A program made the translations under genes and the position numbers. Positions 4,517 to 28,851 of a DNA stretch of 64,000 bases are shown in pieces. Below the pieces are notes generated by a model. The model saw only the letters and a program-made list of their open reading frames with translations. It was not told the origin of the DNA and searched no databases. The first letter of the stretch is position 1, and every line of letters begins with the position of its first letter. This stretch comes from Promethearchaeota archaeon (GTDB taxonomy: Archaea; Asgardarchaeota; Heimdallarchaeia; Hodarchaeales; Hodarchaeaceae). The stretch is taken from assembly GCA_048938105.1 (NCBI GenBank), contig JBHLMN010000004.1, positions 64,001 to 128,000 of the forward strand, written 5' to 3'.

Positions 4517-5467
4517 ATGGTAGAAATTATAAAGCTAGATCAGATAAAGGAAATTTTGGAAAAGATAGATCCTTTAAAACTTATTGAAGAGGGTTTTATT
4601 GCCTATTCTCAAGGAAAAGTTATAGTTCCTCCAGTAGGGGAGATGATTTTTGAGGATCCACCGGGTGATTGTCATATTAAATACGGATATATCAAAGGTG
4701 GTAATTATTACGTGGTTAAAATTGCTCAAGGATTTTATGATAACCCTAAAATCGGGTTATCATCTATTAATGGCCTTAATCTATTATTTAGCCAGAAAAC
4801 TGGGGAAATAATATGTATTTTACTTGATGAAGGACATTTAACGAACATAAGAACCGCAGCCGCAGGAGCAGTTGTTGCAAAATATCTAGCTCCTAAGAAA
4901 GTGAACCGAATAGGGATTTATGGTTATGGAATACAAGGAAAGATGCAATTAGAGTACTTAAAATCTGTCATTAATTGCCGAGATGCATTAGTGTGGGGAA
5001 GGACACAACAAGGACTGGATAAATACCAAAAGGATATGATAAACTCTGGATTTAACATAGAAACAACTATGAATTCTAAGGATATCACTAAGTCATGCAA
5101 CCTTATTGTAACTTGTACGCCTTCAAAGAAACCTCTAATAAAAGTGGAGGAAGTCGTAAAAGGAACACATATTACAGCAATAGGTTCAGATACGCCTGAG
5201 AAGCAGGAATTGGATGCTGCTATCCTTCAAATCGCTGACCGAGTCGTTGTTGATAGTATTTCCCAAGCAGCTTCTCGGGGGGAGTGTTTCCATGCTATAA
5301 TGGAAAGAAAGATAACAGAAGGTAATTTGATCGAACTGGGGACTATGATATCTAATAGAAAGTTCCAACGTGCGACAGATGATGAAATTACTGTTGCTGA
5401 TTTAACTGGTGTGGCGGTTCAAGACATCCAAATTTCAAAAGCGGTGTATGAAGGATTAAAATCTTAG
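4517..5467 (+). CDS. Ornithine cyclodeaminase / mu-crystallin family protein
   Basis: Motifs LTNIRTAAAG, GYGIQG (Rossmann), GTHITAIGSD and DLTGVAVQD. Confidence 0.92.
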   Translation: MVEIIKLDQIKEILEKIDPLKLIEEGFIAYSQGKVIVPPVGEMIFEDPPGDCHIKYGYIKGGNYYVVKIAQGFYDNPKIGLSSINGLNLLFSQKTGEIICILLDEGHLTNIRTAAAGAVVAKYLAPKKVNRIGIYGYGIQGKMQLEYLKSVINCRDALVWGRTQQGLDKYQKDMINSGFNIETTMNSKDITKSCNLIVTCTPSKKPLIKVEEVVKGTHITAIGSDTPEKQELDAAILQIADRVVVDSISQAASRGECFHAIMERKITEGNLIELGTMISNRKFQRATDDEITVADLTGVAVQDIQISKAVYEGLKS

Positions 5468-5520
5468 AATTTTTGGGTTACCGAGAAAAAAGATATTATA
5501 ATTTGTTTCATGAGGACAAA

Positions 5521-6636: not shown

Positions 6637-6728
6637 GCGAATATCGATTACACGATAAAAATTTTTGAAACAGTTTTAAAAAACGATTAGAATTGAGAAA
6701 AAGGAAAAAAGGGATTACTCCCTTGAAT

Positions 6729-8822: not shown

Positions 8823-8834
8823 AAGAACACCTTC

Positions 8835-10763
8835 CTATTGATATTTTCTCCTCCTTTGCCTGAAATAGAGAGTAGCTACGCCTATTACTACGAACATTGT
8901 GACTGCTATGTATATTTCAAATCCAGATGATGCAGCAGATCTGCCTGCCTCTTTTGACATAGGGATTTTTTCAGAATTTGGGGATTCTTCAAAATTTAAG
9001 TGTGAAACTGAAAGTCGAGCATCATATTGCCAGTCTGTGTGTCTTGTCAGATTAATGTATTCCCCAGGTACATATTCTACCCATTTATAAGGCCCAGAGC
9101 CAGTCAAATCCGCAGCTGTTGTGGGAATCCAGGTCTCAAAATCAGGCCCATGAGTGTTCCAGATGTGCATAGGTAACACTGGTAAGCCAGTTGCTCTACT
9201 CCATTCAAAGTACCCACTCTGGTTGGTATAAATCTCAACAATGTAGTCACTAGGCCTATCGACTCGGTAGACATTTTCTAAATAAGATCCATAGTCATTA
9301 CTTCTAGGCCAGAGGGTCTCAAAAGAGTATTCAACATCTGCAGATGTGACTGGTTGTCCATCGTGCCACGTCGCATTATCATTTAGATAGAAGGTGAACT
9401 TCTGGCCGTCCTGAAAACCCCCACCAGCAGTAGTCTCTTCAATGGTCCAGTTATAAGCCAATTGTGGAATAGGATCCCAGTTATTGGGGTCACTTTGCCA
9501 CAGGCGTTCATAGATGCAGTCGAAGACAATCTTATTGAAGTAATATAGATAATTGAGGACATTAGTTGAGTAAATGTCTTCAGTTGAACCGTATCTGAAC
9601 GTTCCTCCAATTGGACCACCTTCGGATTCCTTCAGAGAAATATGTGTGAGACAATACGGATTTTCACCTGTAATGCCCATACCTTTGAAGTTGAAAAAAC
9701 CCTCAAACTTATCTGTACGGTAAGTATTGATAAGAGGATAGCTGTAACAAGCAATCATTGGCTGTTCATGATTTAGTAGTAATAAAACTTCAGCAGATTT
9801 TGCCTTTACATCTTCAAGAGTAGTTGCTGCCATCATCTCGTCAAGAGCAGCGTTTATAGTTGCATTGTTCAACCGATAAATCATGTCTGAATAGGATTGA
9901 CCAGTTCTAAATAATTGGTACAAATATTCCACTGGATTGACAATATCAGCGGCCCAAGTGAAACACATCGTCCAAGCATCATTTGCAAGTATTTTATCGT
10001 AGATAAGAGAAAAGTCCATTTCTACCACAGTCGCGTTTATTCCCATTGCTTGAAGAGCCTTGGCGGCATATTCACTGACGATAATAGCAGGATCATAATC
10101 AATTGTAGCATATATTTCGATGGCACACTCCTGGTGGTCTTTATCACCAGTACTCCAAGTCCCAGAGTCATCAGCATCAAATTCACGCCAACCATCACCG
10201 TCTAAATCTCTAAATCCAGCTCGTTCGAGAGCTGCGATACCAGAATCAATATCTGGTTCATAAAAGTGCGTTGGTAACGAACTTTCAATTTCCCATTCTG
10301 TAGCAATACTAGGCATGTAAGTGTCTATAGGAGTCCCTGCTCCACCATCGATCTCATAGTTAATTCCCACCTTATCTATAGCAAAAGCTAATGCTCGACG
10401 GTACCCAGTGATATTGGTTGGGAAACGTCCACAATTTAAGGAAAGTTGCCGAAAATATGGTTTTTGATTGATAGCTACCTCAACGTTAGGATTCAATACG
10501 AGCCCAGGTAGGTATCGCGCATTATAGATAAGGTCCTCTGTACTGGCGTCAATTTCCCCTTTTTTCAATGCAAGCAACATTTCAGCCCAGTCATTCTGAT
10601 AAATGTTGAATATCACATTATCAATATATCCCCCGTGAGGGCGGAAATTTGAGGGCCATTTGAAGGTCATCGTTGTCATTGGTGCGGAAAGTGTGGTACT
10701 ACCTGAGAGAAGAGCCACTAATACGAACAAACTTGCGAAATTAAACAGTTTCATTTTTTTCAT
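8835..10763 (-). CDS. Family-5 ABC solute-binding protein, circularly permuted; tandem paralog of 6729-8822
   Basis: Same motifs (FPTNITGYRRALA, DLDGDGWRE, WHDGQPVTSADV, GSGPYKW); C-terminal SGFE + TM + RRRK. Confidence 0.85.
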   Translation of the reverse strand: MKKMKLFNFASLFVLVALLSGSTTLSAPMTTMTFKWPSNFRPHGGYIDNVIFNIYQNDWAEMLLALKKGEIDASTEDLIYNARYLPGLVLNPNVEVAINQKPYFRQLSLNCGRFPTNITGYRRALAFAIDKVGINYEIDGGAGTPIDTYMPSIATEWEIESSLPTHFYEPDIDSGIAALERAGFRDLDGDGWREFDADDSGTWSTGDKDHQECAIEIYATIDYDPAIIVSEYAAKALQAMGINATVVEMDFSLIYDKILANDAWTMCFTWAADIVNPVEYLYQLFRTGQSYSDMIYRLNNATINAALDEMMAATTLEDVKAKSAEVLLLLNHEQPMIACYSYPLINTYRTDKFEGFFNFKGMGITGENPYCLTHISLKESEGGPIGGTFRYGSTEDIYSTNVLNYLYYFNKIVFDCIYERLWQSDPNNWDPIPQLAYNWTIEETTAGGGFQDGQKFTFYLNDNATWHDGQPVTSADVEYSFETLWPRSNDYGSYLENVYRVDRPSDYIVEIYTNQSGYFEWSRATGLPVLPMHIWNTHGPDFETWIPTTAADLTGSGPYKWVEYVPGEYINLTRHTDWQYDARLSVSHLNFEESPNSEKIPMSKEAGRSAASSGFEIYIAVTMFVVIGVATLYFRQRRRKYQ

Positions 10764-11011
10764 AAAAAAATCTTCCTATATTCATTTTAAACTTGTATTA
10801 AGTCTATAAACACCATTCACATACATTTTCGAAATTATTTTTTAGAAGAAATCATTCTAAAATATACCTATTATCTAGTTTTTATAATCTACTATTCGGA
10901 AGATGTCTTACTTAAACGAATTTGGTCAATTAAGAGACAAAATATAAAACTGTTGGACTTAAAACTATAAAAAAAGGCAAGATCTCTCTCCTTTCATTAT
11001 TATATTTGCCT

Positions 11012-11791
11012 TTAAACCCAATAATAACACTTATACGGTTTTGAATCAGTATATCCCAGTTTGAGAGCAAAGTCTCTGGAAATCTCAGTATCAGCATCCC
11101 AATGAGGTTCAATACCATTTTCCAAACAATATGAAATGAGTTCAACTGCTACTCGTGTTGCCAATCCTTTTCTTCGATATTTTATTGAATCCACTGTGTC
11201 TACCTGAATTTCGAGACTTGTTCTGAAAGGAACCAAAGAAGAAGCCATACTAATGATTGAAAGACCATACTTGATACAATATCCCTTTCCCGATGCCATA
11301 AAATGTTTTGGGTCTCCAAAGAACAGATGAACATAATATCCGATCGAATTTTTTATTTGATTCAGGACTTCCATATCCACTTGTTGTAAATAATAACGTT
11401 CAGGAAGGTTGTGTTTTAAATTTTGTATGTATTTAAGAGTAACAGCGGAAGCAGAAAGAGCATATCGGTTGAAGTTTCTTAGTTTAGTTCTAAAGTACAT
11501 CCTTAAGTGTGGAATCCATAATTTCTGATTTGGAATAAAGATTGTCTGTTTCGGAGGGATGTGAGCTAAGATTTTGTTTATATCAGATGAACTGGGAGTT
11601 CCTGCTAGAATATGAACCCCAGGTATTGTAAAAAGTGATACTGAAGGATTTTCAGGATTATCTACAAAAATTTCTCCCAGAGGGAGCTCTGGAATCGCTT
11701 CGATTATATTTCTGAGATGTTGATGTGCATCATACATATGACGAATCGAATCAAAATGAGAACTAGGAATCTGTATCACCATTCGGAGCAC
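11012..11791 (-). CDS. GNAT-family acetyltransferase
   Basis: YRRKGLA acetyl-CoA motif; PHWDA...SRDFALKLGY. Confidence 0.85.
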   Translation of the reverse strand: MLRMVIQIPSSHFDSIRHMYDAHQHLRNIIEAIPELPLGEIFVDNPENPSVSLFTIPGVHILAGTPSSSDINKILAHIPPKQTIFIPNQKLWIPHLRMYFRTKLRNFNRYALSASAVTLKYIQNLKHNLPERYYLQQVDMEVLNQIKNSIGYYVHLFFGDPKHFMASGKGYCIKYGLSIISMASSLVPFRTSLEIQVDTVDSIKYRRKGLATRVAVELISYCLENGIEPHWDADTEISRDFALKLGYTDSKPYKCYYWV

Positions 11792-11842
11792 CGAGTTTAT
11801 ATATTTTATTACTCTACAATGTTTTGATTAGGTGACTCATCT

Positions 11843-12328
11843 TTAGATAAGTCCTTTACATCGGGAGGAGTTTGGACATTTTCCTCGGTATTGATGAAGT
11901 AGAGCCAGTTGGTTTTCTGTCTCTGGACACCCTTCACCTAAAGCTCCATGAATGATCTCTAGTGCTTCTGTTGACTTATATCCATGAGTTACTAGAAATA
12001 ATCCAATCATTGTTCCTGTTCGGCCACAACCAGCAATACAATGGGTCAATACTGCCTGTTCATTTTGTAATGTTTCACATACGATTTGTAAATAATGATT
12101 AATAGTATCCTCTGTAGGAATTCCAAAATCAGGGATAGATAGGCGTTTGAATTTTACTCCACTAGTTTTTAATTGTTCTTTTAGACTATTTGGTAATCCA
12201 CGAGATGTAAGGTTCACTACAAGCATAAGATTCAACTGTGGTAGAATGCCAAGCTCTTTAAAGAGGGGAAAAGGGCTGCCAGCCAATTTTCCTGGAATAA
12301 TCCACCTGATTATTTGGTTTATTGCCAT
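11843..12328 (-). CDS. Dual-specificity / protein-tyrosine phosphatase
   Basis: HCIAGCGRTG (CX5R) active site, IPDF acid loop and ETENQ. Confidence 0.92.
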   Translation of the reverse strand: MAINQIIRWIIPGKLAGSPFPLFKELGILPQLNLMLVVNLTSRGLPNSLKEQLKTSGVKFKRLSIPDFGIPTEDTINHYLQIVCETLQNEQAVLTHCIAGCGRTGTMIGLFLVTHGYKSTEALEIIHGALGEGCPETENQLALLHQYRGKCPNSSRCKGLI

Positions 12329-12349
12329 AAATTTCCCGATTCGATAAGT

Positions 12350-13216
12350 TCATTTTATGATTGATTTAATAAAACCAATAACTTGAGTACTATAATCTGG
12401 ATGTTTTTCAATATCGGAATGATTAGTCTGGTCTGGTATCCATATTTTACTGTAGGGTATTTCCTTTTGGAGGAGAATAGTATATTTTACTGGTAAGATT
12501 TCATCTTCTCGTCCATGGATCAACAAAGTAGGGACAGTAATATGTGATGCAGCATCCAGTGGAGAAAATTCCAGTTTTGAATATTTCCTAAACTTAAATA
12601 AAGTAAGGATTGTGATACCTGGCATCAAGAATGGGGTAAACCATTTCAAGACTGGACCATAAACGTATTTAAGACTGTGAGGAAATGCATAAGGAGATGC
12701 TTCTGCTATTACAGCTTTAACTAGAGGATTTTGGGCTGCTACTATCAATGTGGCACCAGCCCCAATTGAATGGCCAGTTACTATCACTGGTTTTCCCCAC
12801 CAATTAACACAGGAATTAAGGTCTTGACTGAATCGTACAATACTCATTCCTGCGATTTCTTTATCAGAGTTACCATGATCCCTTACAGAAATCAAAATAG
12901 TGATGTATCCATGTTTACCATAGATTCTAGCTCGAGAGACCATTCGCCCTCTATTCCTTCCCCAACCATGAACCAATATTATTGCGGGTTTTTGGTTTCT
13001 GACTTCGTCTGTTCTTCCTTTTGGATAGACTACCCAACACTCCATTCTTTTTCCATTGATTGTAGGCACTTTAAATTCTTTCACTACCCCCCAATCAGGA
13101 TATTCATTAATAGGTCTTCTTGGAAAATTCGCTAAGATAAGTATAATACTCTGATTAATTAGAAAATAAGCAAAAATAATGACACCTAACCAAGTTAATA
13201 TATGGATAATTGTCAT
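12350..13216 (-). CDS. Membrane-anchored alpha/beta hydrolase
   Basis: N-terminal TM; VHGWG, GHSIG nucleophile elbow, HGRED and a C-terminal His. Confidence 0.88.
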   Translation of the reverse strand: MTIIHILTWLGVIIFAYFLINQSIILILANFPRRPINEYPDWGVVKEFKVPTINGKRMECWVVYPKGRTDEVRNQKPAIILVHGWGRNRGRMVSRARIYGKHGYITILISVRDHGNSDKEIAGMSIVRFSQDLNSCVNWWGKPVIVTGHSIGAGATLIVAAQNPLVKAVIAEASPYAFPHSLKYVYGPVLKWFTPFLMPGITILTLFKFRKYSKLEFSPLDAASHITVPTLLIHGREDEILPVKYTILLQKEIPYSKIWIPDQTNHSDIEKHPDYSTQVIGFIKSIIK

Positions 13217-13372
13217 TGTAAGTCCTCATTATGGAAAAACTAAGCCATTAACCTGTGGTCAATGATTATTATATTATGGATAATGAATTCTTTGTTTGTT
13301 ATTGCGCAGTAGATGAATATTAAACATTTTATTTTCTAAAAGTGTTATTTCTTGACATAAAAACTCATATTA

Positions 13373-15466
13373 CTAAGCTATCTTAAACTTCTCTTCTAAG
13401 AGAATGTCACTTGAAGATCTTCCCACTAAGAGCTTGTATTCACCAGGTTCAATTTTCCAAGAATGGGTATTATCATCGTAAAACGCTAAATCTTTAGCTC
13501 TTATAACCATATTTACAATCTCTGTTTCATTTGCAGTAATAAATATCTTTTTAAATCCAGTTAACTCTTTTAGGGGCCGTTCAACTCCACAATCAAGACT
13601 TTGTGTATATGCCTGAACAACTTCAGATCCAGGATGATTGCTTGTATTTGTTAAATTGAGAGTTACGGTTATATTTTCATTCTTAGTATATTTCTTTTTG
13701 TTTAATCGGAGATTGTCATAAAGAAAGGTAGAATAAGAGAGACCATAACCAAATGGAAAGAGAGGTATTATCTTTTCCTTTTCAAAAAAACGATAACCTA
13801 CAAAAATTCCCTCATCATAATAAACTTTCAATCCCTCCCCAGGATAAGTTTTGGTAGAACGATGCACAGGTGAGTCTCTAAGTTTCTTTGGAAAAGTTAT
13901 TGGTAATTTTCCAGAAGGATTAACATCACCAAATAGTATATTAGCGATTGCATGGCCCCCTTCCATCCCTGGATACCAAGCCTCAAGAATAACAGGAACA
14001 TTTTCTAGCCAACCATTCATTGCGATTGGACTACCATTTAATAAAACAACTATAGTATTTGGATTATTTTGAACTGTATGATTAATCAAATTGACTTGTT
14101 CTTTGGGCAATTCGAGTTGATTTCGATCTATTCCTTCACTATCATTTCCAAATGATGACTTTTTATCTTGATTTTCCCCCCTCGCTAGAGATTTATTGCT
14201 GTCATGATTTAGTCCTGCAAAAATAATTACGTAATCAGTTTTTGAAGGATCAGTAGTAATTTGAACTTTATTCTCACATTTTTTCTTCAATCCTTTAAGA
14301 GGAGTTATTTCATACGGAGGTTTGACTGCAGAACTACCACCATAAAGCCATTTACCGAATTTTTTATCTCGGTTGGGCCCTATAATTGATAAAGTACTGA
14401 TTTTTGATATATCAAGAGGAAGAATGTTAGTATCATTCTTTAACAACACCATTCCTTCTTCAGCCATTCGTCTTGCTAATTTTTGATGATCTGGAGTGTT
14501 TCGTTTTCCTTGAGGAAGAGTACTTTTATTTTCAAAAAGACCAACCAAAAACATAACACGTAAAAGCTTTCTTACAATAGTATTTAGGTCTTCTTCTGTG
14601 ATTTTCTGTTCATTTAAAGTACAATGCAACGATTTAAGATGATATACTTTAGCCTTAGGCATTTCAAGTGAAACACCTGCTAAGATACATTCTTCTGCTG
14701 AAACTGGAGGATTGGCACGTGAGAAGGCCCACCAATCTGAAACAATAAATCCCTTAAAATTCCATTTATCCCAAAGAGTATTTCGAAGTAACGCTTTGTT
14801 AGCAAATAAATATTGACCATTAACTTTATTATATGATGTCATAATCATCCAAGGATCTGCTTCTTTTATTACCTCCATGAACGCTCTAAGATAAATTTCG
14901 TGGAGTGTTCTTTCATCAATTTCAGCACTAATAGTAAAACGCTTCGTTTCTTGGTTATTAGCCACATAATGTTTAGGACAAGCCGCGATACGTTGACTTT
15001 GAACTCCTTTAACATATGGAATTGCCAGTTCTTTCGTTAAATATGGATCTTCACTTAAGTATTCAAAAGTTCGGCCATTTAAGGGTGTTCTATCAATATT
15101 TATTCCTGGAGCTAGGATAGCATGCCTTCCGATTGCTCGAGCCTCTTTTCCGACAGCCTTACCGAATTCATGGGCAAGCTGGCGATTGAAGGAAGAAGCA
15201 AGACATATCCCTCCTGGAAAGCGGGTATTTTTACGAAGAAAACTCGTATGCATTGAAATACCGAATGGTCCATCAGTCATTTTAAATGGTTTTATACCTA
15301 ACCTTTTAATGGACTGAGTCTGGAAAAATCGGTTACCTGCAAGTAATTTGAACTTCTCATCGATTGTTAGACGATTTAGCAGATCATCGACTCTAGCTTC
15401 GATATCTAAACTAGGATTTCTATACGAAAGGTGTGTTAATTCCTCTGTCTCAAGTTTTTGGGTCAT
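13373..15466 (-). CDS. Glycoside hydrolase family 3 (beta-glucosidase)
   Basis: Motifs TDGP, GRTFEYLSEDP, KHY, IVSDW, VLLKN and FPFGYGLSY, plus an Fn3-like C-terminus. Confidence 0.95.
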   Translation of the reverse strand: MTQKLETEELTHLSYRNPSLDIEARVDDLLNRLTIDEKFKLLAGNRFFQTQSIKRLGIKPFKMTDGPFGISMHTSFLRKNTRFPGGICLASSFNRQLAHEFGKAVGKEARAIGRHAILAPGINIDRTPLNGRTFEYLSEDPYLTKELAIPYVKGVQSQRIAACPKHYVANNQETKRFTISAEIDERTLHEIYLRAFMEVIKEADPWMIMTSYNKVNGQYLFANKALLRNTLWDKWNFKGFIVSDWWAFSRANPPVSAEECILAGVSLEMPKAKVYHLKSLHCTLNEQKITEEDLNTIVRKLLRVMFLVGLFENKSTLPQGKRNTPDHQKLARRMAEEGMVLLKNDTNILPLDISKISTLSIIGPNRDKKFGKWLYGGSSAVKPPYEITPLKGLKKKCENKVQITTDPSKTDYVIIFAGLNHDSNKSLARGENQDKKSSFGNDSEGIDRNQLELPKEQVNLINHTVQNNPNTIVVLLNGSPIAMNGWLENVPVILEAWYPGMEGGHAIANILFGDVNPSGKLPITFPKKLRDSPVHRSTKTYPGEGLKVYYDEGIFVGYRFFEKEKIIPLFPFGYGLSYSTFLYDNLRLNKKKYTKNENITVTLNLTNTSNHPGSEVVQAYTQSLDCGVERPLKELTGFKKIFITANETEIVNMVIRAKDLAFYDDNTHSWKIEPGEYKLLVGRSSSDILLEEKFKIA

Positions 15467-20226: not shown

Positions 20227-20246
20227 AATACAAAAGCTTTTGTATT
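20227..20246. promoter_or_regulatory. Perfect 20-bp palindrome AATACAAAAGCTTTTGTATT, probable operator
   Basis: Lies in the divergent GH36/aminotransferase intergenic region and ends 13 bp before the ATG at 20260. Confidence 0.6.
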
Positions 20247-20259
20247 GAATGTGACGATC

Positions 20260-21345
20260 ATGACCTTTGCCCGAATGCTTCTTGAAGAATGGTTTGATAA
20301 ATACCAGTTTGAAGTCGATTATGACATTGGAGAGAGTGGAGTAAAATTCTTCAAATTTCGTGATTTGAATTTAGATCTTGATGATGTCGAATTAAGATAC
20401 ACCCACCATTTAGGTAACCCTGAACTGAGAGAAGTCATTGCTCTGGAATATGAAAATATAAGTTGGGAGAGTATTGCAGTTACTACTGGTGCCGCAGAAT
20501 CTATTTTTTCACTTATTGCATCTTTAACAAGTAGAAAAGATCATATTATAGTAGAATGTCCCAATTATCCCTCCTTTTGGTATATTCCAGAATCCTTGGA
20601 GCGTCAAATGGATCTTTTCTCCTTAAGATTCGATGAACAATTTAAACCGAATGTTGAGACTCTAGAGGAAATGATAAGACCAAATACGAAACTAATTTGT
20701 TTAACACACCCAAATAATCCAACTGGATCTGTAATAACAGAAGAGGAACTAAAGAATATATTAGATATAATTGAAGAGAAGAAGATTTGGCTATTAATGG
20801 ATGAAACTTATAGAGATTTATCAATTAGTAAATCACCCCCTCCAACAGCTGCAAGCTTAAATTCAAGGGCTATTAGTGTTTCTACAATGTCTAAAGTGTT
20901 TGGTGTTCCTGGGATAAGAATTGGTTGGTCTGCTTGTCTTGATGAAAATGTTATCAAAGGAATTTTAAAAGTTCGGGAACAAAAAACTATTTGCAATTCA
21001 GCATTGAATGAGGTAATAGCACTGCAGCTGTTAAACCAGAAAGAAGAGCATTTACTGGATATTAAAAGACGAGTTAATACCAATATTCAAATCCTAATAG
21101 AATGGATGAAAAATCAAGAGGATTTAAAATTTATAGTTCCTGAAGGTGGAGTAACGTGTTTTCCCCGCTATAGAGAATCAACTAAGGAACTTTGTCGTCT
21201 CTTAGTAGAAAAATATAGGACATTTACAGTTCCAGGTTACTGCTTTAAGATGGATTCCTTTTTCCGTTTGGGATTTGGTGGAGAAACGGAAGAATTGAAG
21301 AAAGGGCTTGAAAAACTAAACCTAGCTATAAATGAAATTGAATGA
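20260..21345 (+). CDS. Class I/II PLP-dependent aminotransferase/lyase, paralog of 5521-6636
   Basis: Motifs HPNNPTG, DETY and MSKVFGVPGIRIGW. Confidence 0.9.
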   Translation: MTFARMLLEEWFDKYQFEVDYDIGESGVKFFKFRDLNLDLDDVELRYTHHLGNPELREVIALEYENISWESIAVTTGAAESIFSLIASLTSRKDHIIVECPNYPSFWYIPESLERQMDLFSLRFDEQFKPNVETLEEMIRPNTKLICLTHPNNPTGSVITEEELKNILDIIEEKKIWLLMDETYRDLSISKSPPPTAASLNSRAISVSTMSKVFGVPGIRIGWSACLDENVIKGILKVREQKTICNSALNEVIALQLLNQKEEHLLDIKRRVNTNIQILIEWMKNQEDLKFIVPEGGVTCFPRYRESTKELCRLLVEKYRTFTVPGYCFKMDSFFRLGFGGETEELKKGLEKLNLAINEIE

Positions 21346-21400
21346 ACAACACAAACATCATAAATCCTAAAAATATACTTATCAAAGGGTTTCGATAACG

Positions 21401-22477
21401 TTGAAAAGACCTTTGAAGATTCTCCTTACATCAGTAGGATGTCCTGGTGCACCAGCACTTATTAGACACTTAAAAGACAATGGAGAGAGAGAAATCCAGA
21501 TAATCGGCATTGATATGAACCAATATGCTACAGGATTCTATATGGTTGATAAACCGTATATTGTACCACCAGCCAAAGAAAGTAATTATATTCCATCATT
21601 GTTTAAAATAGCTGAAAAAGAGAAACCTGATGTAATTTTTCCCCAATCCTCCTATGAAGTAGGACCAATTTCTCGGAATAAAGAAAAATTTGAAGATTTA
21701 GGCGCTAAAGTAATGGTCTCCAAACCTAAACCTATCGAAATATGTAATAATAAGTATCTTTTGCTAGAATTCTTGAGATCTCATGGATTGAAGACAGCAG
21801 AATATTATTATCCGAAAGATCTCAAAGAGTTTCAAGAATGTGCAAGACTCTTAGGATTTCCAGAGAAAAAAGTTTGCTTCAAACCACATATTTCTAAAGG
21901 GAGTCGAGGCATGCGGATTATAGACCCCAAAATAAATAAGGTCGATTTACTTCTGAACAAACGTCCTTTTAATAGATATATTGATATGAATGATTTTTTT
22001 GAGATTTTTACTGATAAAGAATTCCCCAAACTTCTGCTAATGGAGTACTTAGACGGACTTGAATGTACTGTGGACACATTAGTTTCTGATGGTGAAACGC
22101 TTCTTTCAACAGTAAAAACCCGTGAAAAAGCCACATCTGGTCTAGCAATGATTTTTAAAACAGTTGATCGTCCAGACCTTGAATCATTTACAGAATTAGC
22201 TATGAAAGCACTTCGTCTTGACTACTGTATCAATGTTCAATTCAAGGGTAAACATCTTATAGAAATCAATCCACGAGTATCAACTTTTACATACCAAGAA
22301 GACCTTGTTTTACCCTATCTTTCTCTTAAATGGCTTCTTGGGGAAATTTCAAAAAAAGAACTAGCTGATCAAAAATCTAAAATAAGATATGGGAGAATAA
22401 CGATCCGCTATTATGAACAATACGGTATTAATGAATTCAATGTTCCACAAATAGATAGTAGAAGGATTATCAATTAA
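21401..22477 (+). CDS. ATP-grasp ligase (carbamoyl-phosphate-synthase-like / PylC-like single module)
   Basis: Motifs CNNKY, FKPHISKGSRG, MEYLDG.E.TVD, NVQF and IEINPR. Confidence 0.88.
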   Translation: MKRPLKILLTSVGCPGAPALIRHLKDNGEREIQIIGIDMNQYATGFYMVDKPYIVPPAKESNYIPSLFKIAEKEKPDVIFPQSSYEVGPISRNKEKFEDLGAKVMVSKPKPIEICNNKYLLLEFLRSHGLKTAEYYYPKDLKEFQECARLLGFPEKKVCFKPHISKGSRGMRIIDPKINKVDLLLNKRPFNRYIDMNDFFEIFTDKEFPKLLLMEYLDGLECTVDTLVSDGETLLSTVKTREKATSGLAMIFKTVDRPDLESFTELAMKALRLDYCINVQFKGKHLIEINPRVSTFTYQEDLVLPYLSLKWLLGEISKKELADQKSKIRYGRITIRYYEQYGINEFNVPQIDSRRIIN

Positions 22478-22505
22478 ATACTCTGTGTCATAGAGCTGTT
22501 CAGAA

Positions 22506-24014
22506 ATGACAAAGAAAAAGGAATTATCAGAATATTATGGCAAAGGAGGGCGATTGAAGACCTCTGCTGCACGAGAATTAATTGAAACAGCCTATAATTT
22601 TGAGTGTAATGAACAAAAGATATTATTTAACGATATAGGGTATGCTGATATCGCTCATGTCTTGATGTTGATTGAGGAAGGAGTGATTCCTCCTGAAAAA
22701 GGAGGTACTCTTCTTAAAGCTTTAATGGATTTACAAGAAGTAGATGTTGACAACATACCTCTCAAAACTGAATTGGGAGATATTTATAACGTTCGAACTG
22801 GTATATTAGAAGAAAAAATTGGAAAATTAACTGGTTGGATGCACGCAGGCCGCCCTCGGCGTGAAGCAATTAATATTGGTTTTTTGCTTACTGTTAGACG
22901 TCTTTTACTCAGATTGTTAAAGGTTCATCTCCTTTTAATCAATGAATTCCTAGCCAAAGCTCAAAGCCACTTGAATACAATAATGCCAGATTTCACATAT
23001 TTACATCATGCACAACCCACATCTTTGAGTCACTACTTGTTAACATTTGTATATCCTGCTTTACGAGATTTAGAGAGATTAAAAGTTAATTATGAACGAA
23101 TAAACTCAAGTCCCTGTGGTTCTGGTAGTGTGAATGGATCAAGGCTTCCCCTTAATCGAACCCGTCTTATGATATTACTAGGATTCGATAGAATGACAAA
23201 ACATACAAGGGATGCAATGTGGCAACCTGATATACCTATTGAAACAGCATCAAATTTACTGGCATTGTTAATCAATATTAACAGATTTTCTGAAGAGTTA
23301 CAAATATGGAGCACAACAGAATTTAAGATGATTGATCTTCCAGATCGTTTCTGCAGAGCAAGTGTAATTATGCCTCAAAAGAAAAATCCTTACTCGCTGA
23401 CATACATTCGTGGATTAACGGGAGATATGATAGGTACTTTTACGAGTATTGCTGGAGTAGCAAAAACTTCATCAGGCAATCCTGATTCTAGAATGTTCGT
23501 TTACGGTAAGTTGCCAAGAGCTATTGAAAATATTTCAAAAGCAGTTGATCTTTTTGCTTCTCTTATAAGAGACATGAAACCAAAAACTGAAATAATGTTA
23601 CAAAGAGCAAATGAGGGTTTTCCCCAAGCTACTGATCTTGCTGATGTCATAATGCAAGAAAAAAAAGTAGATTATCGGTCTGCACACCAAATCGTCGGCA
23701 TTCTTGCTAGAAAATCTATTGAATCTGAGTCAATAGAATTTTCTCTGACTCCTGAATCAGTTGATGAAGCTGCTAGTCAAGTTCTCGGGGAAAAAATTGG
23801 TTTAACACAAAAACAATTAGAATCAGTACTTGATCCAGTAAAAATCGTTGAAACAAGGCAAGGTCCTGGAGGTGCTTCGAAAATTCGTGTCCAAGAAATG
23901 ATTAGGGAGTGCCATGAATTCATTCAAGAGATTTCAGGATGGAGAGATGAATGTGAAGAACGTTCTTTAAATGCTCTCAATAATCTCATTTTGATAGCAA
24001 AAGAAAAAATTTGA
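22506..24014 (+). CDS. Argininosuccinate-lyase-like (fumarase/aspartase superfamily) enzyme with non-canonical active site, XcbC-like candidate
   Basis: HAGRPRRE; FTYLHHAQP versus canonical YTHLQxAQP; ASVIMPQKKNP versus canonical GSSxMPQKKNP; ATDLAD; immediately upstream of comA. Confidence 0.85.
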   Translation: MTKKKELSEYYGKGGRLKTSAARELIETAYNFECNEQKILFNDIGYADIAHVLMLIEEGVIPPEKGGTLLKALMDLQEVDVDNIPLKTELGDIYNVRTGILEEKIGKLTGWMHAGRPRREAINIGFLLTVRRLLLRLLKVHLLLINEFLAKAQSHLNTIMPDFTYLHHAQPTSLSHYLLTFVYPALRDLERLKVNYERINSSPCGSGSVNGSRLPLNRTRLMILLGFDRMTKHTRDAMWQPDIPIETASNLLALLININRFSEELQIWSTTEFKMIDLPDRFCRASVIMPQKKNPYSLTYIRGLTGDMIGTFTSIAGVAKTSSGNPDSRMFVYGKLPRAIENISKAVDLFASLIRDMKPKTEIMLQRANEGFPQATDLADVIMQEKKVDYRSAHQIVGILARKSIESESIEFSLTPESVDEAASQVLGEKIGLTQKQLESVLDPVKIVETRQGPGGASKIRVQEMIRECHEFIQEISGWRDECEERSLNALNNLILIAKEKI

Positions 24015-24793
24015 GTTGTGGAATTATGAAAAAATTACTAAATCTTCCTGAAAGAGCTAAAAAGCCAAGAGAAATTGGATTAACTCATGTTTTAGACAAA
24101 GCAATTGGTCTCTCAGCCCAAGAAGATATGCTTAACACATGTGCTTATTATATTGATATAGTGAAAATTGGGTGGGGATTAGGAGTTCTCGTACAGCACC
24201 TAAAAGATAAAATCGATTTGTATCATAAGCATAAAATCCCAGTCACCTTTGGTGGCACATTATTTGAGGTTGCCTACGCCAATAACAGGCTTGATGAATA
24301 CAAGAATTGGATGAAAGAATTAGGGGTAGGGTATATGGAGATCTCTGATGGTACAATTACCTTATCTATATCTGAGAAGTTGGATTTTATAAAGGAATTT
24401 TCCAAAGATTTCACTGTACTTTCTGAATTCGGCAGCAAAGATGCTGCAACCATTGTCGCTCCTAAAGAGTGGGTGTTAGGAATGATTATGGAACTTGATG
24501 CTGGAGCATGGAAAGTAATCGCTGAAGGCAGAGAATCAGGAACATCTGGTCTTTATCGGCGAAGTTCTGAAATCCGTACAGGTCTCGTCGATGAGCTCAT
24601 TGATGCAATTAATCATGAAAAAATCATTTGGGAGGCTCCTCAAAAGTCCCAACAAGTGTGGTTCATCAAAAAATTTGGTCCGAATGTAAATTTGGGCAAT
24701 ATTGCCCCCTCAGAAATAATTCCATTAGAAACTTTGCGTCTTGGGTTACGTGGAGACACATTGTTAACATTTCATGGTTCAAAGGAAAAATAG
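24011..24793 (+). CDS. comA: Phosphosulfolactate synthase ComA
   Basis: KPR..GLTHVLDK, IDIVKIGWG, GGTLFE, EISDG, SEFGSK, EGRESG, WEAPQK.QQ, FGPNVNLGNI and LETLRLGLRGDT. Confidence 0.95.
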   Translation: MSCGIMKKLLNLPERAKKPREIGLTHVLDKAIGLSAQEDMLNTCAYYIDIVKIGWGLGVLVQHLKDKIDLYHKHKIPVTFGGTLFEVAYANNRLDEYKNWMKELGVGYMEISDGTITLSISEKLDFIKEFSKDFTVLSEFGSKDAATIVAPKEWVLGMIMELDAGAWKVIAEGRESGTSGLYRRSSEIRTGLVDELIDAINHEKIIWEAPQKSQQVWFIKKFGPNVNLGNIAPSEIIPLETLRLGLRGDTLLTFHGSKEK

Positions 24794-24800
24794 CCCATTT

Positions 24801-25619
24801 TCAGCTTTTATCTTTTCTTCTATGAATGTCTTTTTTGAGATCGGGGTTGGAAATGGTCGTTAAACTCGAATCCAAATCAATAGTTGTTGCCATTTCCCGT
24901 ATAAATTGTTCCTTGTTTGCATGTATGTGAATTCCACATTCTTTTTTCTCCAATCCTTTCCAACGTCCCTCTCTTTCTCCTTCCCCATCATTTACGGGTG
25001 CTGTGCAGGGAACGCATCCAATACTTGGGAAATTTTTGTCATGAAGAGGATTATACGGAAGTTCATACTTTTTAATATAGAACCAGACTTTTTCTTGAGA
25101 CCAATCCCACATTGGATTGATTTTAATCATTCCCCGCCCATCTATTTCAATAACATCTAGATTTGCACGCGTTTTAAACTGATCTCTTCTTATTGCACTT
25201 AACCAAGCGTTTTTCGTTTCCAGTACTTTTAGGAGGGGTATAACCTTTCTATAATGGCAACAGATGTCAGGGTTTGTTCTGAAAGCGTTTTTTCCAATTA
25301 TAGTGTCTAATTCTTTTTCGCTAAAATTCGGATATAAAAGCTGTATATTTAGTTTCCATTCATTTCTTATTCTATTCATGAGATCAATTGTCTCTGGAAA
25401 ATGGAGACGAGTATCAATGAAATATATTGGAACTTGTGGTACTGTATCTTTAATAAAGTTCATTAAAACAATACCACTATAGCCAAAGGCAGTAGTCATT
25501 GCTAATTCTTCACTAAATTCCTCATAAGATAATAAAATGATTTCTGATACATCTCTGCCAGTGAAATCCTTTTTCAATATTTTTACTTTTCTTATCTTTT
25601 CTCTCATTGAAAATTTCAT
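24801..25619 (-). CDS. cysH: APS/PAPS reductase of the Fe-S-containing APS-reductase type
   Basis: Motifs FIDTRLHFPET, CC..RKV.PL, AIRRDQ, SIGCVPCT, REGRW and KECGIH. Confidence 0.93.
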   Translation of the reverse strand: MKFSMREKIRKVKILKKDFTGRDVSEIILLSYEEFSEELAMTTAFGYSGIVLMNFIKDTVPQVPIYFIDTRLHFPETIDLMNRIRNEWKLNIQLLYPNFSEKELDTIIGKNAFRTNPDICCHYRKVIPLLKVLETKNAWLSAIRRDQFKTRANLDVIEIDGRGMIKINPMWDWSQEKVWFYIKKYELPYNPLHDKNFPSIGCVPCTAPVNDGEGEREGRWKGLEKKECGIHIHANKEQFIREMATTIDLDSSLTTISNPDLKKDIHRRKDKS

Positions 25620-25930: not shown

Positions 25931-26920
25931 TCATTGAATATTCATAAAATCTTTGATAATTATACTTAGTTTTTCCATATCAAGAGTCATGAAATTGATA
26001 AATCCATCAATTATAAACATTAAAATTCCTAAAAGTAATATTAAAGGTGTTTTACTAAATAATCCTCCTAAAAAGTAAAAACCAAAGTAGCTTAAATGAA
26101 AGAATATGAAAATTATTGGAGGCAATAAATCAGTATTCTTTTCCACAATTGGTTTTGATTGACTAAAAGGCACAAGAAGTATTATACTAGCCAAAATCAT
26201 TGTATAGATGAGAATCGATAATCCTGTCAAACCTGAAGGAATACTGTAATTATAAATACTTAAAATATTAAATAATATGTATACAGGTAGTGGAAGGACA
26301 TGAAATGATAGAAATAAAGGCAGGTATGAAAAGAAGGGAATAATTAGGAAATACAGGATCGATAAGATTGAAGGAACATTAAATTTTTTACTAATTTCTT
26401 TTTCTTCTAATCGTAACATTACCGAGAAAATAAGTACAACAAAGAACCATCCAACAAAATTCCCATAATTTACTCCAAAGAAACTATTTAAAGTGGGAAA
26501 GGGTTCCATAGGGATATCAATCCAACTCCAAAAACCACCATCAAGACGAATAGCAATTGTATCCATAGATAAATCAATAGTTAATGCCAGAAACCCATCT
26601 AATACTGAACGTGACCATTCAGGAATATTAACGACCTTGTTGGAAACATTCATACACGCATAAATGATCAAACCCCAACATAATCCAATACATATTGGAA
26701 TGTTGTCAGGAGGAGATCCAAGTTGAATAAGGAATTCAGGGGAGTACGTATAGGTATGCATTACTTGTACATTCATAAATTCAAGGGTCACTCCAAAAAG
26801 GCTTCCACTCACAATTTGAGCTATTGATTTATGATCTTTCCTCATAAACCATAAATAGAACAGAACACCAAGGAACAAGAGAAATGCTGATAATTCTGCA
26901 AATAAAGTGAAAAACACCAT
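25931..26920 (-). CDS. Polytopic membrane protein, CruF/carotenoid-hydratase-like
   Basis: Many TMs; E...YTY, DLSMD...WSW...GVNYGNFVGWF pattern. Confidence 0.6.
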   Translation of the reverse strand: MVFFTLFAELSAFLLFLGVLFYLWFMRKDHKSIAQIVSGSLFGVTLEFMNVQVMHTYTYSPEFLIQLGSPPDNIPICIGLCWGLIIYACMNVSNKVVNIPEWSRSVLDGFLALTIDLSMDTIAIRLDGGFWSWIDIPMEPFPTLNSFFGVNYGNFVGWFFVVLIFSVMLRLEEKEISKKFNVPSILSILYFLIIPFFSYLPLFLSFHVLPLPVYILFNILSIYNYSIPSGLTGLSILIYTMILASIILLVPFSQSKPIVEKNTDLLPPIIFIFFHLSYFGFYFLGGLFSKTPLILLLGILMFIIDGFINFMTLDMEKLSIIIKDFMNIQ

Positions 26921-27189
26921 CTTTGAACCTTCAGATTTATTTTTATGTTGAGGTGAATTCTATTTTATTCTTCTTTTGTCAATTTGTCTCTTCTAGGAGA
27001 ATCATGAGTTCTACAGAAATCATGTTTGTGTTCATAATTGTGATTTACAATATATGCTTAAATCTTAAGACAAGCATAAAAGTATCGTTTCTAAAAGAGT
27101 AGTTTCATTAGACAATATGGACGAGAATACATAGTAATACATAAAAGCAAAATGATTTGTCAATTCACTTTAAGAACGGAGATTATATT

Positions 27190-28851
27190 ATGAATATTAT
27201 TCAGGGATTCTCTGCCACCTCATCAGGTATTCAGCTGAATGTCACAAATATTCTCAAACACGGGGCAAGGAGCTTTGGTAGACAAGAAATTGTTAGTAGG
27301 AGACAAGATGGAACTATATTTCGTTATACTTACAAAGACGCTTACACTCGTGTAAAGCGTTTGGCTAGTTCTTTAAGTTTTTTGGATATAACAATTGGAG
27401 ATAAGATTGGGGTTCTTGCTTGGAATACCTATCGCCACTTTGAGCTATATTATGGGCTTTCTGGTACTGGAGCAGTAATGCTTCTTCTGAATCTACGTCT
27501 TGCTCCTCAAGAATTGAGCTATATCGTGAACCATGCTAAGGCAAGATTCATCTTTGTAGATGAAAACCTTCTAGATGTAGCAGAATCGATTGCTCCCTTG
27601 TGTAAGACAGTCAAAGCGTATGTTATTATATCAGATAAACCGTTGAGTGATGTTCCTACATCTCTTACTCCAATATATAGTTATGAAGAGATGTTAAATG
27701 AAACAAATCCAGAGTTTGAATGGCCCAACATTGCTGAGACCTCAGCTCATTCAGCTTGTTACACCAGTGGGACAACTGGTAAACCTAAAGGAGTCTATTA
27801 TTCTCATCGTGATGTTTATCTTCAAGCAATGATGTATGCCGTTAATGCTTCGATTTCAATAAATGATTGCCTACTCCAAATTGTTCCAATGTTTCATGTT
27901 CTAGGTTGGGGTTCTCCTTACGCAGCGACACTAGTAGGAGCTAAACTCGTTTTTCCTGGCAAATACCATTTAACTGACCTAGGGGATCTCATAAAGATTC
28001 TAGTTGAGGAAAAAGTGACGATTTCAAATGGGGCTCCTGCTGTCTTAATGCCAATGTTAGAACACATCCGAAAAATGGATCCAAAACCCAATCTGACAAA
28101 AACACGGTTTATTTCGGGGGCCTCGGAACCTCCTATCTCTATGATAAGGGATTTTCAGAAGTTGACTGGGGCAGAAATTGTCCATTCCTATGGTTCAACT
28201 GAAGCGCATGCAATCGTAACATTGAACCGAGTCATTCCTGCATTAAAGAAAGAGCTCTCCGAGGAAGAAAGTTGGGATCTAAAAAGAAAACAGGGATATA
28301 TTGTTGTTGGACTTGACATTAAAATTATAGATGAAAATGGCAAGGAACTTCCTCATGATGGCAAATCAGCTGGAGAAATACTTATCCGAGGCCCTTGGGT
28401 TTCAGGGAGTTATTATAACAACCCTGGTTCTGAAATTCAGTTTAATAATGATGGTTATTTTAAGAGTGGAGATGTCGGAACGATTGATTCTGAGGGATTT
28501 TTGAAGATTACAGATCGCCTCAAAGATCTTATTAAGAGCGGTGGAGAATGGATCTCTTCAGTGGATATGGAGAATGCAATTGTCTCTCATCCTGCCGTTA
28601 TTGAAGCAGCAGTCGTTGGATGTCCTCATCCTGAGTGGCAAGAACGGCCTTTAGCTTTAGTAGTCTTAAGAGACGAATTCAGAACAAAAGTAACTAAGGA
28701 TGAGATTAAAAAACATCTTGCTGAAAAATTTGCTAAGTGGCAGCTCCCTGATGAGATTCTTTTTGTGACTAGAATACTAAAAACAAGTGTAGGGAAGATA
28801 GACAAGAAAACTATTCGAATGCAATATAATAACATCTATACAAGTACTTAA
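27190..28851 (+). CDS. Medium-chain acyl-CoA ligase (AlkK/DmdB-like)
   Basis: Motifs [35 protein letters not shown] and WQERP. Start moved to ATG at 27190. Confidence 0.92.

What the first reader, a model, noticed from the sequence alone, without database searches (positions are those of the whole stretch)
20260..25619. Sulfonate biosynthetic cluster resembling bacterial coenzyme M steps but with an ATP-grasp ligase
Seen: aminotransferase, ATP-grasp, ASL-like and comA genes are co-oriented (the last two overlap) and converge 7 bp from an APS reductase. Known: ComA adds sulfite to PEP. In alkene-oxidising bacteria an ASL-family enzyme (XcbC) then eliminates phosphate to give sulfoacrylate, whereas methanogens use ComB-E. 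APS reductase supplies sulfite. No comB-E or xcbD/E gene is visible in the window. Inference: the archaeon makes sulfoacrylate and ligates it to an amine (amino acid, amino sugar or lipid), giving a new sulfonate metabolite or surface modification, or a variant CoM route that uses the PLP enzyme.
Basis: partly seen in the sequence, partly recalled or inferred. Interest (0 to 1): 0.8.

Follow-up and report, generated by a model that had tools for sequence, protein, structure and literature searches.

The report
Sulfoacrylate-plus-ligase cassette, Asgard archaeon
A four-gene accessory block in a Hodarchaeales (Asgard) archaeon most likely turns sulfate-derived sulfite and phosphoenolpyruvate into sulfoacrylate and then fixes it by an amide bond to an amine, probably a de-acetylated amino sugar of the cell surface; I found no description of this side branch of bacterial coenzyme M synthesis in the papers I could search.

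Summary

**Lyase.** It is an XcbC-type phosphosulfolactate phosphate-lyase, not ArgH:
- It nests in the clade that holds the Xanthobacter enzyme.
- It carries every residue conserved in that clade.
- The genome has no argininosuccinate synthase.

**Sulfite supply.** APS comes from a Sat gene elsewhere. No sulfite reductase was found, so the APS reductase most likely feeds ComA.

**Not coenzyme M.** No XcbA, XcbD, ComB, ComDE or Mcr was found. Of 80 bacterial and archaeal XcbC loci, 48 are CoM-type and none has an ATP-grasp. The window's subclade lacks CoM genes. In it, ATP-grasp genes of two further, barely related subfamilies lie by lyase/ComA among amino-sugar and glycan genes.

**Correction.** The aminotransferase is not part of the unit. 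Sister species keep its orthologue without the other four genes.

**Ligase.** Its own family sits next to a PIG-L deacetylase in 10 of 11 other contexts, often beside a sulfonate supply.

**Best reading.** Sulfoacrylate is amide-linked to a de-acetylated amino sugar. The acceptor is inferred. The scan reached the same reading earlier on another genome (e1-5541159).

The parts
21401..22477 (+). ATP-grasp carboxylate-amine ligase (358 aa; database record starts 4 codons later)
   Evidence: Pfam gives PylC-like_N + ATPgrasp_Ter. The AF2 model has pLDDT 90.5 and an ATP-grasp fold; the top PDB match is 2pn1, which is uncharacterised. Homologues at 29-57% identity lie next to PIG-L in 10 of 11 contexts. 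The genome has no paralogue.
22506..24014 (+). XcbC-type 2-phospho-3-sulfolactate phosphate-lyase (sulfoacrylate-forming), 502 aa
   Evidence: NF052535 scores 487 bits, under its cutoff of 575; argH scores 294. The protein nests in the XcbC clade with the characterised Xanthobacter XcbC. All residues conserved at 90% or more in that clade are present, including Tyr165 where ArgH has His. The genome has no ArgG.
24011..24793 (+). ComA, (2R)-phospho-3-sulfolactate synthase; overlaps the lyase by 4 bp
   Evidence: PF02679 scores 298 bits over its full length; TIGR03849 scores 252, under its cutoff of 280. It is the only ComA in the genome.
24801..25619 (-). CysH-type Fe-S APS reductase, convergent with ComA across a 7-bp gap; sulfite source
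   Evidence: NF002537 scores 230 bits against a cutoff of 154. The CC...CxxC and ECGIH motifs are present. Close orthologues in the genus occur only in genomes that carry the cassette. No NIR_SIR sulfite reductase is in the genome.
20245..21345 (+). Class I/II PLP enzyme directly upstream; a conserved chromosomal neighbour, not part of the cassette
   Evidence: It falls in the PRK07324/GntC/VioD-like group, below all cutoffs; the nearest structure is 3op7. Orthologues occur in 8 of 21 genus genomes, 6 of them without a lyase match. In G240 the next gene is the AMP-binding gene; in G174 it is the Caroten_synth-like gene.
25931..28851 (.). Right flank: Caroten_synth-like membrane protein (25931-26920 -) and acyl-CoA synthetase (27157-28851 +); these mark the far edge of the indel
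   Evidence: Both are conserved at 69-83% identity next to the aminotransferase orthologue in genomes that lack the cassette.

Best explanation
The unit is a four-gene accessory cassette: ATP-grasp ligase, XcbC-type lyase and ComA, with a convergent APS reductase.

Proposed route:
1. APS, made by the Sat gene on another contig, is reduced to sulfite by the cassette's Fe-S APS reductase.
2. ComA adds the sulfite to phosphoenolpyruvate, giving phosphosulfolactate.
3. The XcbC-type lyase eliminates phosphate, giving 3-sulfoacrylate.
4. The ATP-grasp enzyme activates a carboxylate, most simply that of sulfoacrylate, as an acyl phosphate and joins it to an amine.

The amine is most likely a hexosamine residue whose N-acetyl group was removed by a PIG-L deacetylase encoded elsewhere. 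The product would be a sulfonated surface glycan or glycolipid.

How firm each step is: steps 1 to 3 rest on homology to characterised enzymes. The ligase's substrates and the acceptor are inferred from gene neighbourhoods. The upstream aminotransferase is a neighbour, not a member.
For: **Enzyme identities.** Pfam and NCBIfam. The lyase nests in the XcbC clade and carries the full XcbC residue set. The XcbC reaction itself is established in PMC9457059.

**Sulfite is committed to this route.** Sat and APS kinase are present. No NIR_SIR sulfite reductase was found in a 99%-complete genome. Within the genus, the close CysH orthologue occurs only with the cassette. CysH also sits beside ComA + lyase in three bacterial loci.

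**Four-gene indel.** G174 and G240 carry the empty site.

**A ligase is the alternative to the CoM genes.** None of 48 CoM-type loci has an ATP-grasp; 6 of the 32 other loci do. With the window's own, the ligases come from three barely related subfamilies. The bacterial ones lie among DegT, Polysacc_deac_1, glycosyltransferase, Wzx and Wzy genes.

**The window's ATP-grasp family.** It is adjacent to PIG-L in 10 of 11 contexts. It often sits next to a sulfonate supply: cysteate synthase + ComDE + CysH, SsuA-like ABC importers, or ComA.

**A candidate partner in this genome.** G000 has one PIG-L of that paired subfamily. It lies in a glycan cluster with GT4, Sat and sulfotransferases and has no ligase next to it.

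**Precedent.** The sulfonated peptidylamido-glycan of C. difficile flagellin needs an ATP-grasp gene (PMC5207246, PMC5207245).
Against: - No deacetylase, glycosyltransferase or sugar gene lies in or beside the cassette, so the acceptor is a guess by family association.
- In G255 the orthologous PIG-L already has its own ATP-grasp partner.
- G279 has that PIG-L orthologue, yet no lyase, ATP-grasp or CysH match was found there.
- The bacterial relatives usually add a fumarate-reductase-like flavoprotein, which is absent here. The acyl group may therefore differ between them: sulfoacryloyl here, sulfopropionyl there.
- The lyase scores below NCBIfam's XcbC cutoff (487 against 575) and is only 36% identical to the assayed enzyme.
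- No expression data could be obtained.
Confidence: 0.5

Rival explanations
1. The chemistry is the same up to sulfoacrylate, but the ligase joins it to a soluble amine such as an amino acid, peptide or polyamine. The product would be a free sulfonate metabolite: a solute, a signal, or a fumaramoyl-like Michael-acceptor antimetabolite.
For: The cassette holds no sugar gene. One bacterial relative couples lyase + ComA + CysH to an NRPS. The closest ATP-grasp homologue, L037, has no PIG-L within 7 kb. L-amino-acid ligases such as RizA appear among the structural matches.
Against: The ATP-grasp family is otherwise tied to PIG-L and glycan clusters in 10 of 11 contexts. No exporter or immunity gene is present. 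No precursor-peptide ORF lies in the spacers.
Confidence: 0.2
2. The ligase works the other way round. It activates a uronic-acid or other carboxylate, and the sulfonate is the amine partner (cysteate or taurine), made from sulfoacrylate by an amination step. The upstream PLP enzyme may take part.
For: UDP-glucose dehydrogenase genes lie in several ATP-grasp/PIG-L clusters. ComDE plus a class III aminotransferase next to the ligase in L039 would give taurine. SsuA/TauA-like importers lie beside the ligase. The PLP gene sits 55 bp upstream.
Against: Sulfoacrylate has no amine, and no aspartase-like aminating enzyme is in the cassette. The PLP gene is retained without the cassette in four sister genomes. 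In G291 it sits in a row with an OCD gene and an aminotransferase paralogue.
Confidence: 0.12
3. A variant coenzyme M pathway, in which the ATP-grasp and the PLP enzyme replace XcbD/E/A or ComB-E.
For: The first two steps are those of the bacterial CoM route (PMC9457059). A PALP protein 38% identical to XcbE lies about 100 kb away on the same contig.
Against: No Mcr. No XcbA and no ComDE; the best XcbD match is 28%, at a PurB-like gene. No ComB. The lyase subclade never co-occurs with XcbA/D/E. The cassette is in only 2 of 21 genus genomes, which is odd for a cofactor.
Confidence: 0.04
4. The lyase is an ordinary argininosuccinate lyase, and the adjacency to ComA is coincidental.
For: The TIGR00838 argH score of 293.6 is nominally above its cutoff of 279.5. 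Public records name the protein argininosuccinate lyase.
Against: No ArgG in the genome. No lyase match was found in 18 of the 20 other genus genomes searched. The protein lies outside the ArgH group in the tree. The ArgH His of the T-H motif is Tyr, and N/D is R/E. Translational coupling to ComA is conserved across phyla.
Confidence: 0.01

Closest known systems
Bacterial coenzyme M pathway XcbABCDE of Xanthobacter autotrophicus Py2 (PMC9457059; locus L120, CP000782)
   Same: XcbB (ComA) adds sulfite to PEP. XcbC, an ASL-family enzyme, eliminates phosphate to give sulfoacrylate. The ComA and lyase genes are adjacent and coupled. The window's lyase falls in the same clade and has the same signature residues.
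   Different: There is no XcbA (DUF7714), no XcbD and no XcbE at the locus. An ATP-grasp ligase and an APS reductase are present instead. The lyase is 36% identical to XcbC and scores below the NCBIfam cutoff. No CoM-using enzyme is in the genome.
Sulfonated peptidylamido-glycan of Clostridium difficile type B flagellin (taurinyl-Ala-Gly on Fuc3N; PMC5207245, PMC5207246)
   Same: A sulfonate-bearing acyl chain is amide-linked to an amino sugar. A 'carbamoyl-phosphate-synthetase-like' ATP-grasp gene (CDR20291_0245) is required.
   Different: The sulfonate there is a taurine unit whose origin is unknown. That locus has no ComA, XcbC or CysH. I could not compare the two ATP-grasp sequences because the C. 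difficile protein is not in any collection I could reach.
Mycothiol / bacillithiol logic (glycosyltransferase, LmbE/PIG-L deacetylase, then ligase on the freed amine)
   Same: The window's ATP-grasp family is almost always paired with a PIG-L/BshB-like deacetylase and GT4 genes. This implies a swap of the N-acetyl group for another acyl group.
   Different: The ligase is an ATP-grasp, not a CysRS-like MshC or a BshC. The acyl group is a sulfonate, not cysteine. In this window the deacetylase is not adjacent.
Methanogen CoM routes (ComABCDE; cysteate synthase + ComDE in Methanosarcinales)
   Same: ComA is shared. Other Asgard genomes, including G255 at a second locus, carry CysH + cysteate synthase (TIGR03844, 548 bits) + ComDE. 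In one Asgard genus (L038 type) these stand beside the sister ATP-grasp/PIG-L pair.
   Different: This genome has no ComB, ComDE or Mcr.

Membership tests
XcbC (2-phosphosulfolactate phosphate-lyase, NCBIfam NF052535) | Score at or above the curated cutoff (575 bits) | tested here: not met
   487 bits. This is still far above the argH model at 294 bits.
XcbC (2-phosphosulfolactate phosphate-lyase, NCBIfam NF052535) | Falls in the clade that holds the assayed Xanthobacter XcbC, apart from XcbD and ArgH | tested here: met
   FastTree of 129 rows. The XcbC clade has support 96, and the window sits in a subclade with support 97-98.
XcbC (2-phosphosulfolactate phosphate-lyase, NCBIfam NF052535) | Clade-specific conserved residues | tested here: met
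   All columns conserved at 90% or more in the clade are matched. These include R119, E120, Y165 (His in ArgH), Y94, R235, W239, Q240, R284 and D327.
XcbC (2-phosphosulfolactate phosphate-lyase, NCBIfam NF052535) | Forms sulfoacrylate from phosphosulfolactate | not testable with these tools
   Needs an enzyme assay.
Bacterial CoM pathway (XcbABCDE) | XcbA (DUF7714), XcbD and XcbE present alongside XcbB/C | tested here: not met
   tblastn of the genome found no XcbA. The best XcbD match is 28%, at a PurB-like gene on C48. The only XcbE-like gene is 38% identical and about 100 kb away.
Methanogen CoM pathway (ComABCDE) | ComB phosphatase and ComDE decarboxylase | tested here: not met
   PF04029 gave no match, while the control genomes did. 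ComDE gave no tblastn match. No Mcr.
Argininosuccinate lyase (ArgH, TIGR00838) | Catalytic and substrate residues of ASL, and a partner ArgG in the genome | tested here: not met
   The His of the T-H motif is Tyr, and N/D is R/E. ArgG (PF00764) is absent, while 14 of 14 control genomes have it.
Assimilatory Fe-S APS reductase (CysH type) | PAPS_reduct domain over cutoff, plus the CC...CxxC cluster ligands and the ECGxH catalytic Cys | tested here: met
   NF002537 scores 230 against a cutoff of 154. The motifs CCHYRK, GCVPCT and ECGIH are read directly from the translation.
ATP-grasp carboxylate-amine ligase | ATP-grasp fold and domains | tested here: met
   Pfam PF15632 and PF21360. The AF2 model has pLDDT 90.5, and Foldseek finds at least 500 ATP-grasp matches. 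Substrates were not testable.
PIG-L + ATP-grasp acyl-swap module | Deacetylase gene adjacent to the ligase | tested here: not met
   Not adjacent in the window, G255 or L033. It is met in 10 of 11 homologue contexts. G000 has one unlinked PIG-L of that subfamily on C52.

The most novel reading that the evidence does not exclude
Sulfoacrylate is a branch-point metabolite, and N-sulfoacryloyl (or, after reduction, N-sulfopropionyl) amino sugars are an undescribed class of sulfonated surface-glycan decoration. They would be made in Asgard archaea and in several bacterial phyla by ComA + XcbC-type lyase plus ATP-grasp ligases recruited independently three times.
Probability: 0.4. Interest if true: 0.75.

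Novelty: new variant of a known kind. Interest (0 to 1): 0.6.

Why it matters
Sulfoacrylate is known from only one pathway, bacterial coenzyme M synthesis, described in 2018-2022. Here its two founding enzymes occur without the rest of that pathway. They are coupled to a carboxylate-amine ligase and a dedicated sulfite source, in an archaeon related to the eukaryotic ancestor. The same logic recurs in Verrucomicrobiota, Gammaproteobacteria and Nitrospirota.

If the product is a sulfonated glycan, it adds a carbon-bonded sulfonate, as distinct from a sulfate ester, to the repertoire of microbial surface chemistry. It also gives a concrete mass-spectrometric target.

The result also corrects public annotation: the whole family is named 'argininosuccinate lyase' in the database records. 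And it shows that about 60% of the XcbC homologues sampled belong to full CoM clusters in phyla that are not known CoM users.

Tried and rejected
- **ArgH reading.** Rejected on the tree, the residues and the absence of ArgG.
- **CoM variant.** Rejected for lack of XcbA/D, ComB/DE and Mcr.
- **Aminotransferase as a pathway member.** Rejected as the default reading after finding its orthologues without the cassette. It remains possible as a recruited helper.
- **Repeats or recombination sites at the cassette edges.** Only AT-rich chance matches were found. The dif-like sites reported elsewhere in this genome were not seen at the two junctions I read.
- **Small peptide ORFs in the spacers.** Nothing convincing.
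- **Bacterial-type promoter and terminator scan.** No enrichment, and not suited to archaea.
- **Fused long forms of the ATP-grasp.** None found, which is weak evidence.
- **PDB search by sequence and by fold.** It gave only an uncharacterised ATP-grasp (2pn1) and generic carboxylases, so there is no clue to the substrate.
- **Partovi 2018 paper on XcbC residues.** Not held.
- **Literature searches** for sulfoacryloyl, sulfopropionyl or sulfoacetyl glycans and for taurine-amidated uronic acids found nothing relevant.
Full report
**Observation.** The window is G000:C27:64001-128000, from a 5.85-Mb, 99%-complete Hodarchaeales (Asgard) genome (lineage from scan notes). Five ORFs stand as described:
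- A class I/II PLP enzyme at 20245-21345 +.
- An ATP-grasp at 21401-22477 +.
- An ASL-family lyase at 22506-24014 +.
- ComA at 24011-24793 +, overlapping the lyase by 4 bp.
- A PAPS_reduct-family gene at 24801-25619 -, with 7 bp between the two stop codons.

Pfam and NCBIfam confirm each family. The reductase carries the CC...CxxC and ECGIH motifs of the Fe-S APS reductases. The same genes, order and flanks recur in G255 (same genus) and in a contig labelled Thorarchaeota, at 70-87% protein identity.

**The lyase is XcbC-like, not ArgH.**
- The best NCBIfam model is XcbC at 487 bits, under its cutoff of 575. The argH model scores 294.
- I fetched the characterised xcb cluster of Xanthobacter autotrophicus Py2. 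I then built a tree of 129 lyase-superfamily proteins.
- In that tree the window's protein lies inside the XcbC clade (support 96). It is apart from the XcbD clade and from an outgroup of Asgard ArgH-like proteins.
- It carries every residue conserved at 90% or more in that clade. This includes positions where ArgH differs, such as Tyr165 for the His of the T-H motif and Arg119-Glu120 for Asn-Asp.
- The genome has no argininosuccinate synthase, although the control search hit 14 of 14 reference genomes.
- No lyase match was found in 18 of the 20 other genus genomes searched.

**Sulfite supply.**
- G000 has Sat and APS kinase on contig C52, inside a glycan cluster with sulfotransferases.
- No NIR_SIR sulfite reductase was found, although the control hit 11 of 14 genomes. 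Sulfite made by the APS reductase therefore has no assimilatory sink that I could find.
- In the genus, close orthologues of this reductase occur only where the cassette is.
- The reductase also sits beside ComA + lyase in three bacterial loci.

**Not a coenzyme M pathway.** The genome gave no match to ComB, ComDE, cysteate synthase or XcbA. The best XcbD match is a 28% PurB-like gene. There is no Mcr. An XcbE-like PALP gene, 38% identical, lies about 100 kb away and is not linked.

**What accompanies XcbC elsewhere.**
- A scan of species-representative genomes returned 591 relatives, of which I kept 80 loci.
- After clustering the neighbouring genes, 48 loci are the full CoM type: DUF7714 (XcbA), ComA, two lyases and PALP. 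None of these 48 has an ATP-grasp.
- The window's protein belongs to a subclade of 8-11 sequences with none of the CoM genes.
- In the Limisphaerales member of that subclade, the lyase and ComA sit in an exopolysaccharide cluster. That cluster also holds a 416-aa ATP-grasp, a fumarate-reductase/aspartate-oxidase-like flavoprotein, a polysaccharide deacetylase, UDP-glucose dehydrogenase, glycosyltransferases and Wzy.
- In the gammaproteobacterial symbiont/Chromatiales and Nitrospirota members, the lyase and ComA sit with a 420-aa ATP-grasp, glycosyltransferase GT2 and DegT sugar aminotransferases. The flavoprotein is present in two of these three loci.
- Two bacterial loci outside that subclade also have the 416-aa ATP-grasp. 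In L052 it is beside lyase + ComA. In L079 it is beside ComA, with no clean lyase ORF called.
- The three ATP-grasp types are barely alignable with one another. A ligase has therefore been recruited to this pair more than once.
- Other fates of the pair also appear: an NRPS in L070 and a class I fumarase in Desulfovibrio L042.

**Limits of the unit.**
- The aminotransferase has orthologues at 66-76% identity in 8 of 21 genus genomes.
- In G240 it is followed directly by the acyl-CoA synthetase that flanks the cassette here. In G174 it is followed by the Caroten_synth-like gene.
- The presence/absence block is therefore exactly ATP-grasp + lyase + ComA + reductase.
- In G138 the same site holds another set instead: two hexapeptide transferases, an Amidohydro_2 protein and a 56%-identical reductase.
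- In G291 the aminotransferase orthologue sits in a tight row with homologues of window genes 3013-6636: an unknown protein, an OCD/mu-crystallin protein and an aminotransferase paralogue.
- Cassette proteins differ between G000 and G255 about as much as the flanking genes do (71-87% against 72-77%). G240 is closer to G000 at the flanks. The cassette therefore looks old at this site and repeatedly lost or replaced, rather than newly acquired.

**The ligase's own family.**
- Homologues at 44-57% identity are scattered in Asgard, Bathyarchaeota and bacteria. Only 10 of 300 Asgard genomes searched have one.
- In 10 of the 11 further contexts I read, which include three more distant homologues at 29-34% identity, the gene is adjacent to or within two genes of a PIG-L/BshB-like deacetylase. 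These sit among glycan genes.
- Many of these clusters also hold a sulfonate supply. Examples are CysH + cysteate synthase (TIGR03844, 548 bits) + fused ComDE in one Asgard genus, split ComDE in a Bathyarchaeota genome, SsuA-like ABC importers in three loci, and a ComA 7 kb away in one.
- A careful tree places the cassette's ligase as its own branch among these PIG-L-linked clades.
- The AF2 model is confident (pLDDT 90.5), but its nearest solved structure is uncharacterised.

**A candidate partner in this genome.**
- G000 has five PIG-L genes. Only one, at C52:230781-231401, belongs to the ligase-paired subfamily. It is 43-51% identical to the paired ones, while the other paralogues are about 24% identical.
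- It lies beside GT4 and UDP-GlcNAc 2-epimerase, about 10 kb from Sat.
- Orthologues at 80% or more occur in G255 (cassette present) and in G279 (no cassette gene found), out of 21 genus genomes.
- In G255 this PIG-L has its own 395-aa ATP-grasp neighbour. G000 lacks any homologue of that ligase.

This evidence is suggestive, not decisive.

**Mechanism proposed.** APS is reduced to sulfite by CysH. ComA adds sulfite to PEP to give phosphosulfolactate. The lyase eliminates phosphate to give sulfoacrylate. These three steps are inferred from homology to assayed enzymes (PMC9457059). The ATP-grasp then forms an acyl phosphate and an amide with an amine. That the acid is sulfoacrylate, and that the amine is a de-acetylated hexosamine, is inferred from the neighbourhoods. 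The closest precedent in print for a sulfonated acyl chain on an amino sugar that needs an ATP-grasp gene is C. difficile type B flagellin (PMC5207245, PMC5207246).

**Novelty.** Searches of the held literature found no description of ComA + XcbC with a ligase, nor of sulfoacryloyl or sulfopropionyl glycans. The scan had already reached much the same reading on another genome (e1-5541159). I re-derived it here from my own searches. I add three things: the exclusion of the aminotransferase, the counts across 80 loci, and the orphan PIG-L.

Noticed in passing
L140 (G138:C32:9500-29499), ORFs 9732-13454 on the minus strand: At the site where this window has the cassette, a sister species has two hexapeptide transferases, an Amidohydro_2 protein and a 56%-identical PAPS_reduct gene. 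All are co-directional with the aminotransferase orthologue. This is a second, different reductase-containing module at one hot spot.
   Followed up: partly
window 3013-6636; L170 (G291:C37) 295-5002: In G291 the aminotransferase orthologue stands in a tight row with homologues of window 3013-4482 (no Pfam), 4517-5467 (ornithine cyclodeaminase/mu-crystallin) and 5473-6636 (aminotransferase paralogue). This is probably its original operon, possibly opine or amino-acid metabolism.
   Followed up: partly
L040-L119 (80 loci of species-representative genomes): 48 of 80 XcbC-homologue loci are full CoM-type clusters (DUF7714 = XcbA, ComA, two lyases, PALP). They occur in Chloroflexota, Methylococcales, Actinomycetota, Marinimicrobia and others, often with OsmC, AllG-like, Pyr_redox_2 and Meth_synt_2 genes. 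Bacterial CoM synthesis looks far more widespread than the alkene oxidisers.
   Followed up: partly
L042 (Desulfovibrio sp. UBA6079) 5405-9438: ComA + XcbC-like lyase are followed by a class I fumarate hydratase (and probably its small subunit). This could be a sulfoacrylate hydratase route to sulfolactate that bypasses ComB.
   Followed up: no
L070 (Anaerolineales) 8-8150: Lyase + ComA + APS reductase are followed directly by a 1701-aa NRPS (A-C-A-T). A sulfonate may be a building block of a non-ribosomal peptide.
   Followed up: no
L038/L174, L177, L178 (one Asgard genus); L143 (G255:C1:1019000-1022400): These non-methanogenic Asgard genomes carry CysH + cysteate synthase (TIGR03844, 548 bits) + fused sulfopyruvate decarboxylase ComDE. 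In one genus this set is divergent from an AsnC regulator + ATP-grasp + PIG-L + second ATP-grasp. This is the Methanosarcina-type early CoM steps without Mcr.
   Followed up: partly
G000:C52:216000-238000 (L127, L128): A glycan cluster holds Sat, APS kinase, at least two sulfotransferase-like genes, UDP-glucose dehydrogenase, a CDP-glycerol glycerophosphotransferase, a nucleotidyltransferase-aminotransferase fusion, GT4/GT2 genes and the orphan PIG-L. A sulfated surface polymer is likely.
   Followed up: partly
whole genome G000: No argininosuccinate synthase, no second ASL homologue and no NIR_SIR sulfite reductase were found in a 99%-complete genome. Arginine synthesis through argininosuccinate and assimilatory sulfite reduction both appear to be missing.
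   Followed up: partly
L033 (GCA_048883125.1, JBHLQX010000010.1): The contig is labelled Candidatus Thorarchaeota. It is syntenic over about 17 kb with the Hodarchaeales window at about 70% protein identity, so the label is probably wrong.
   Followed up: no
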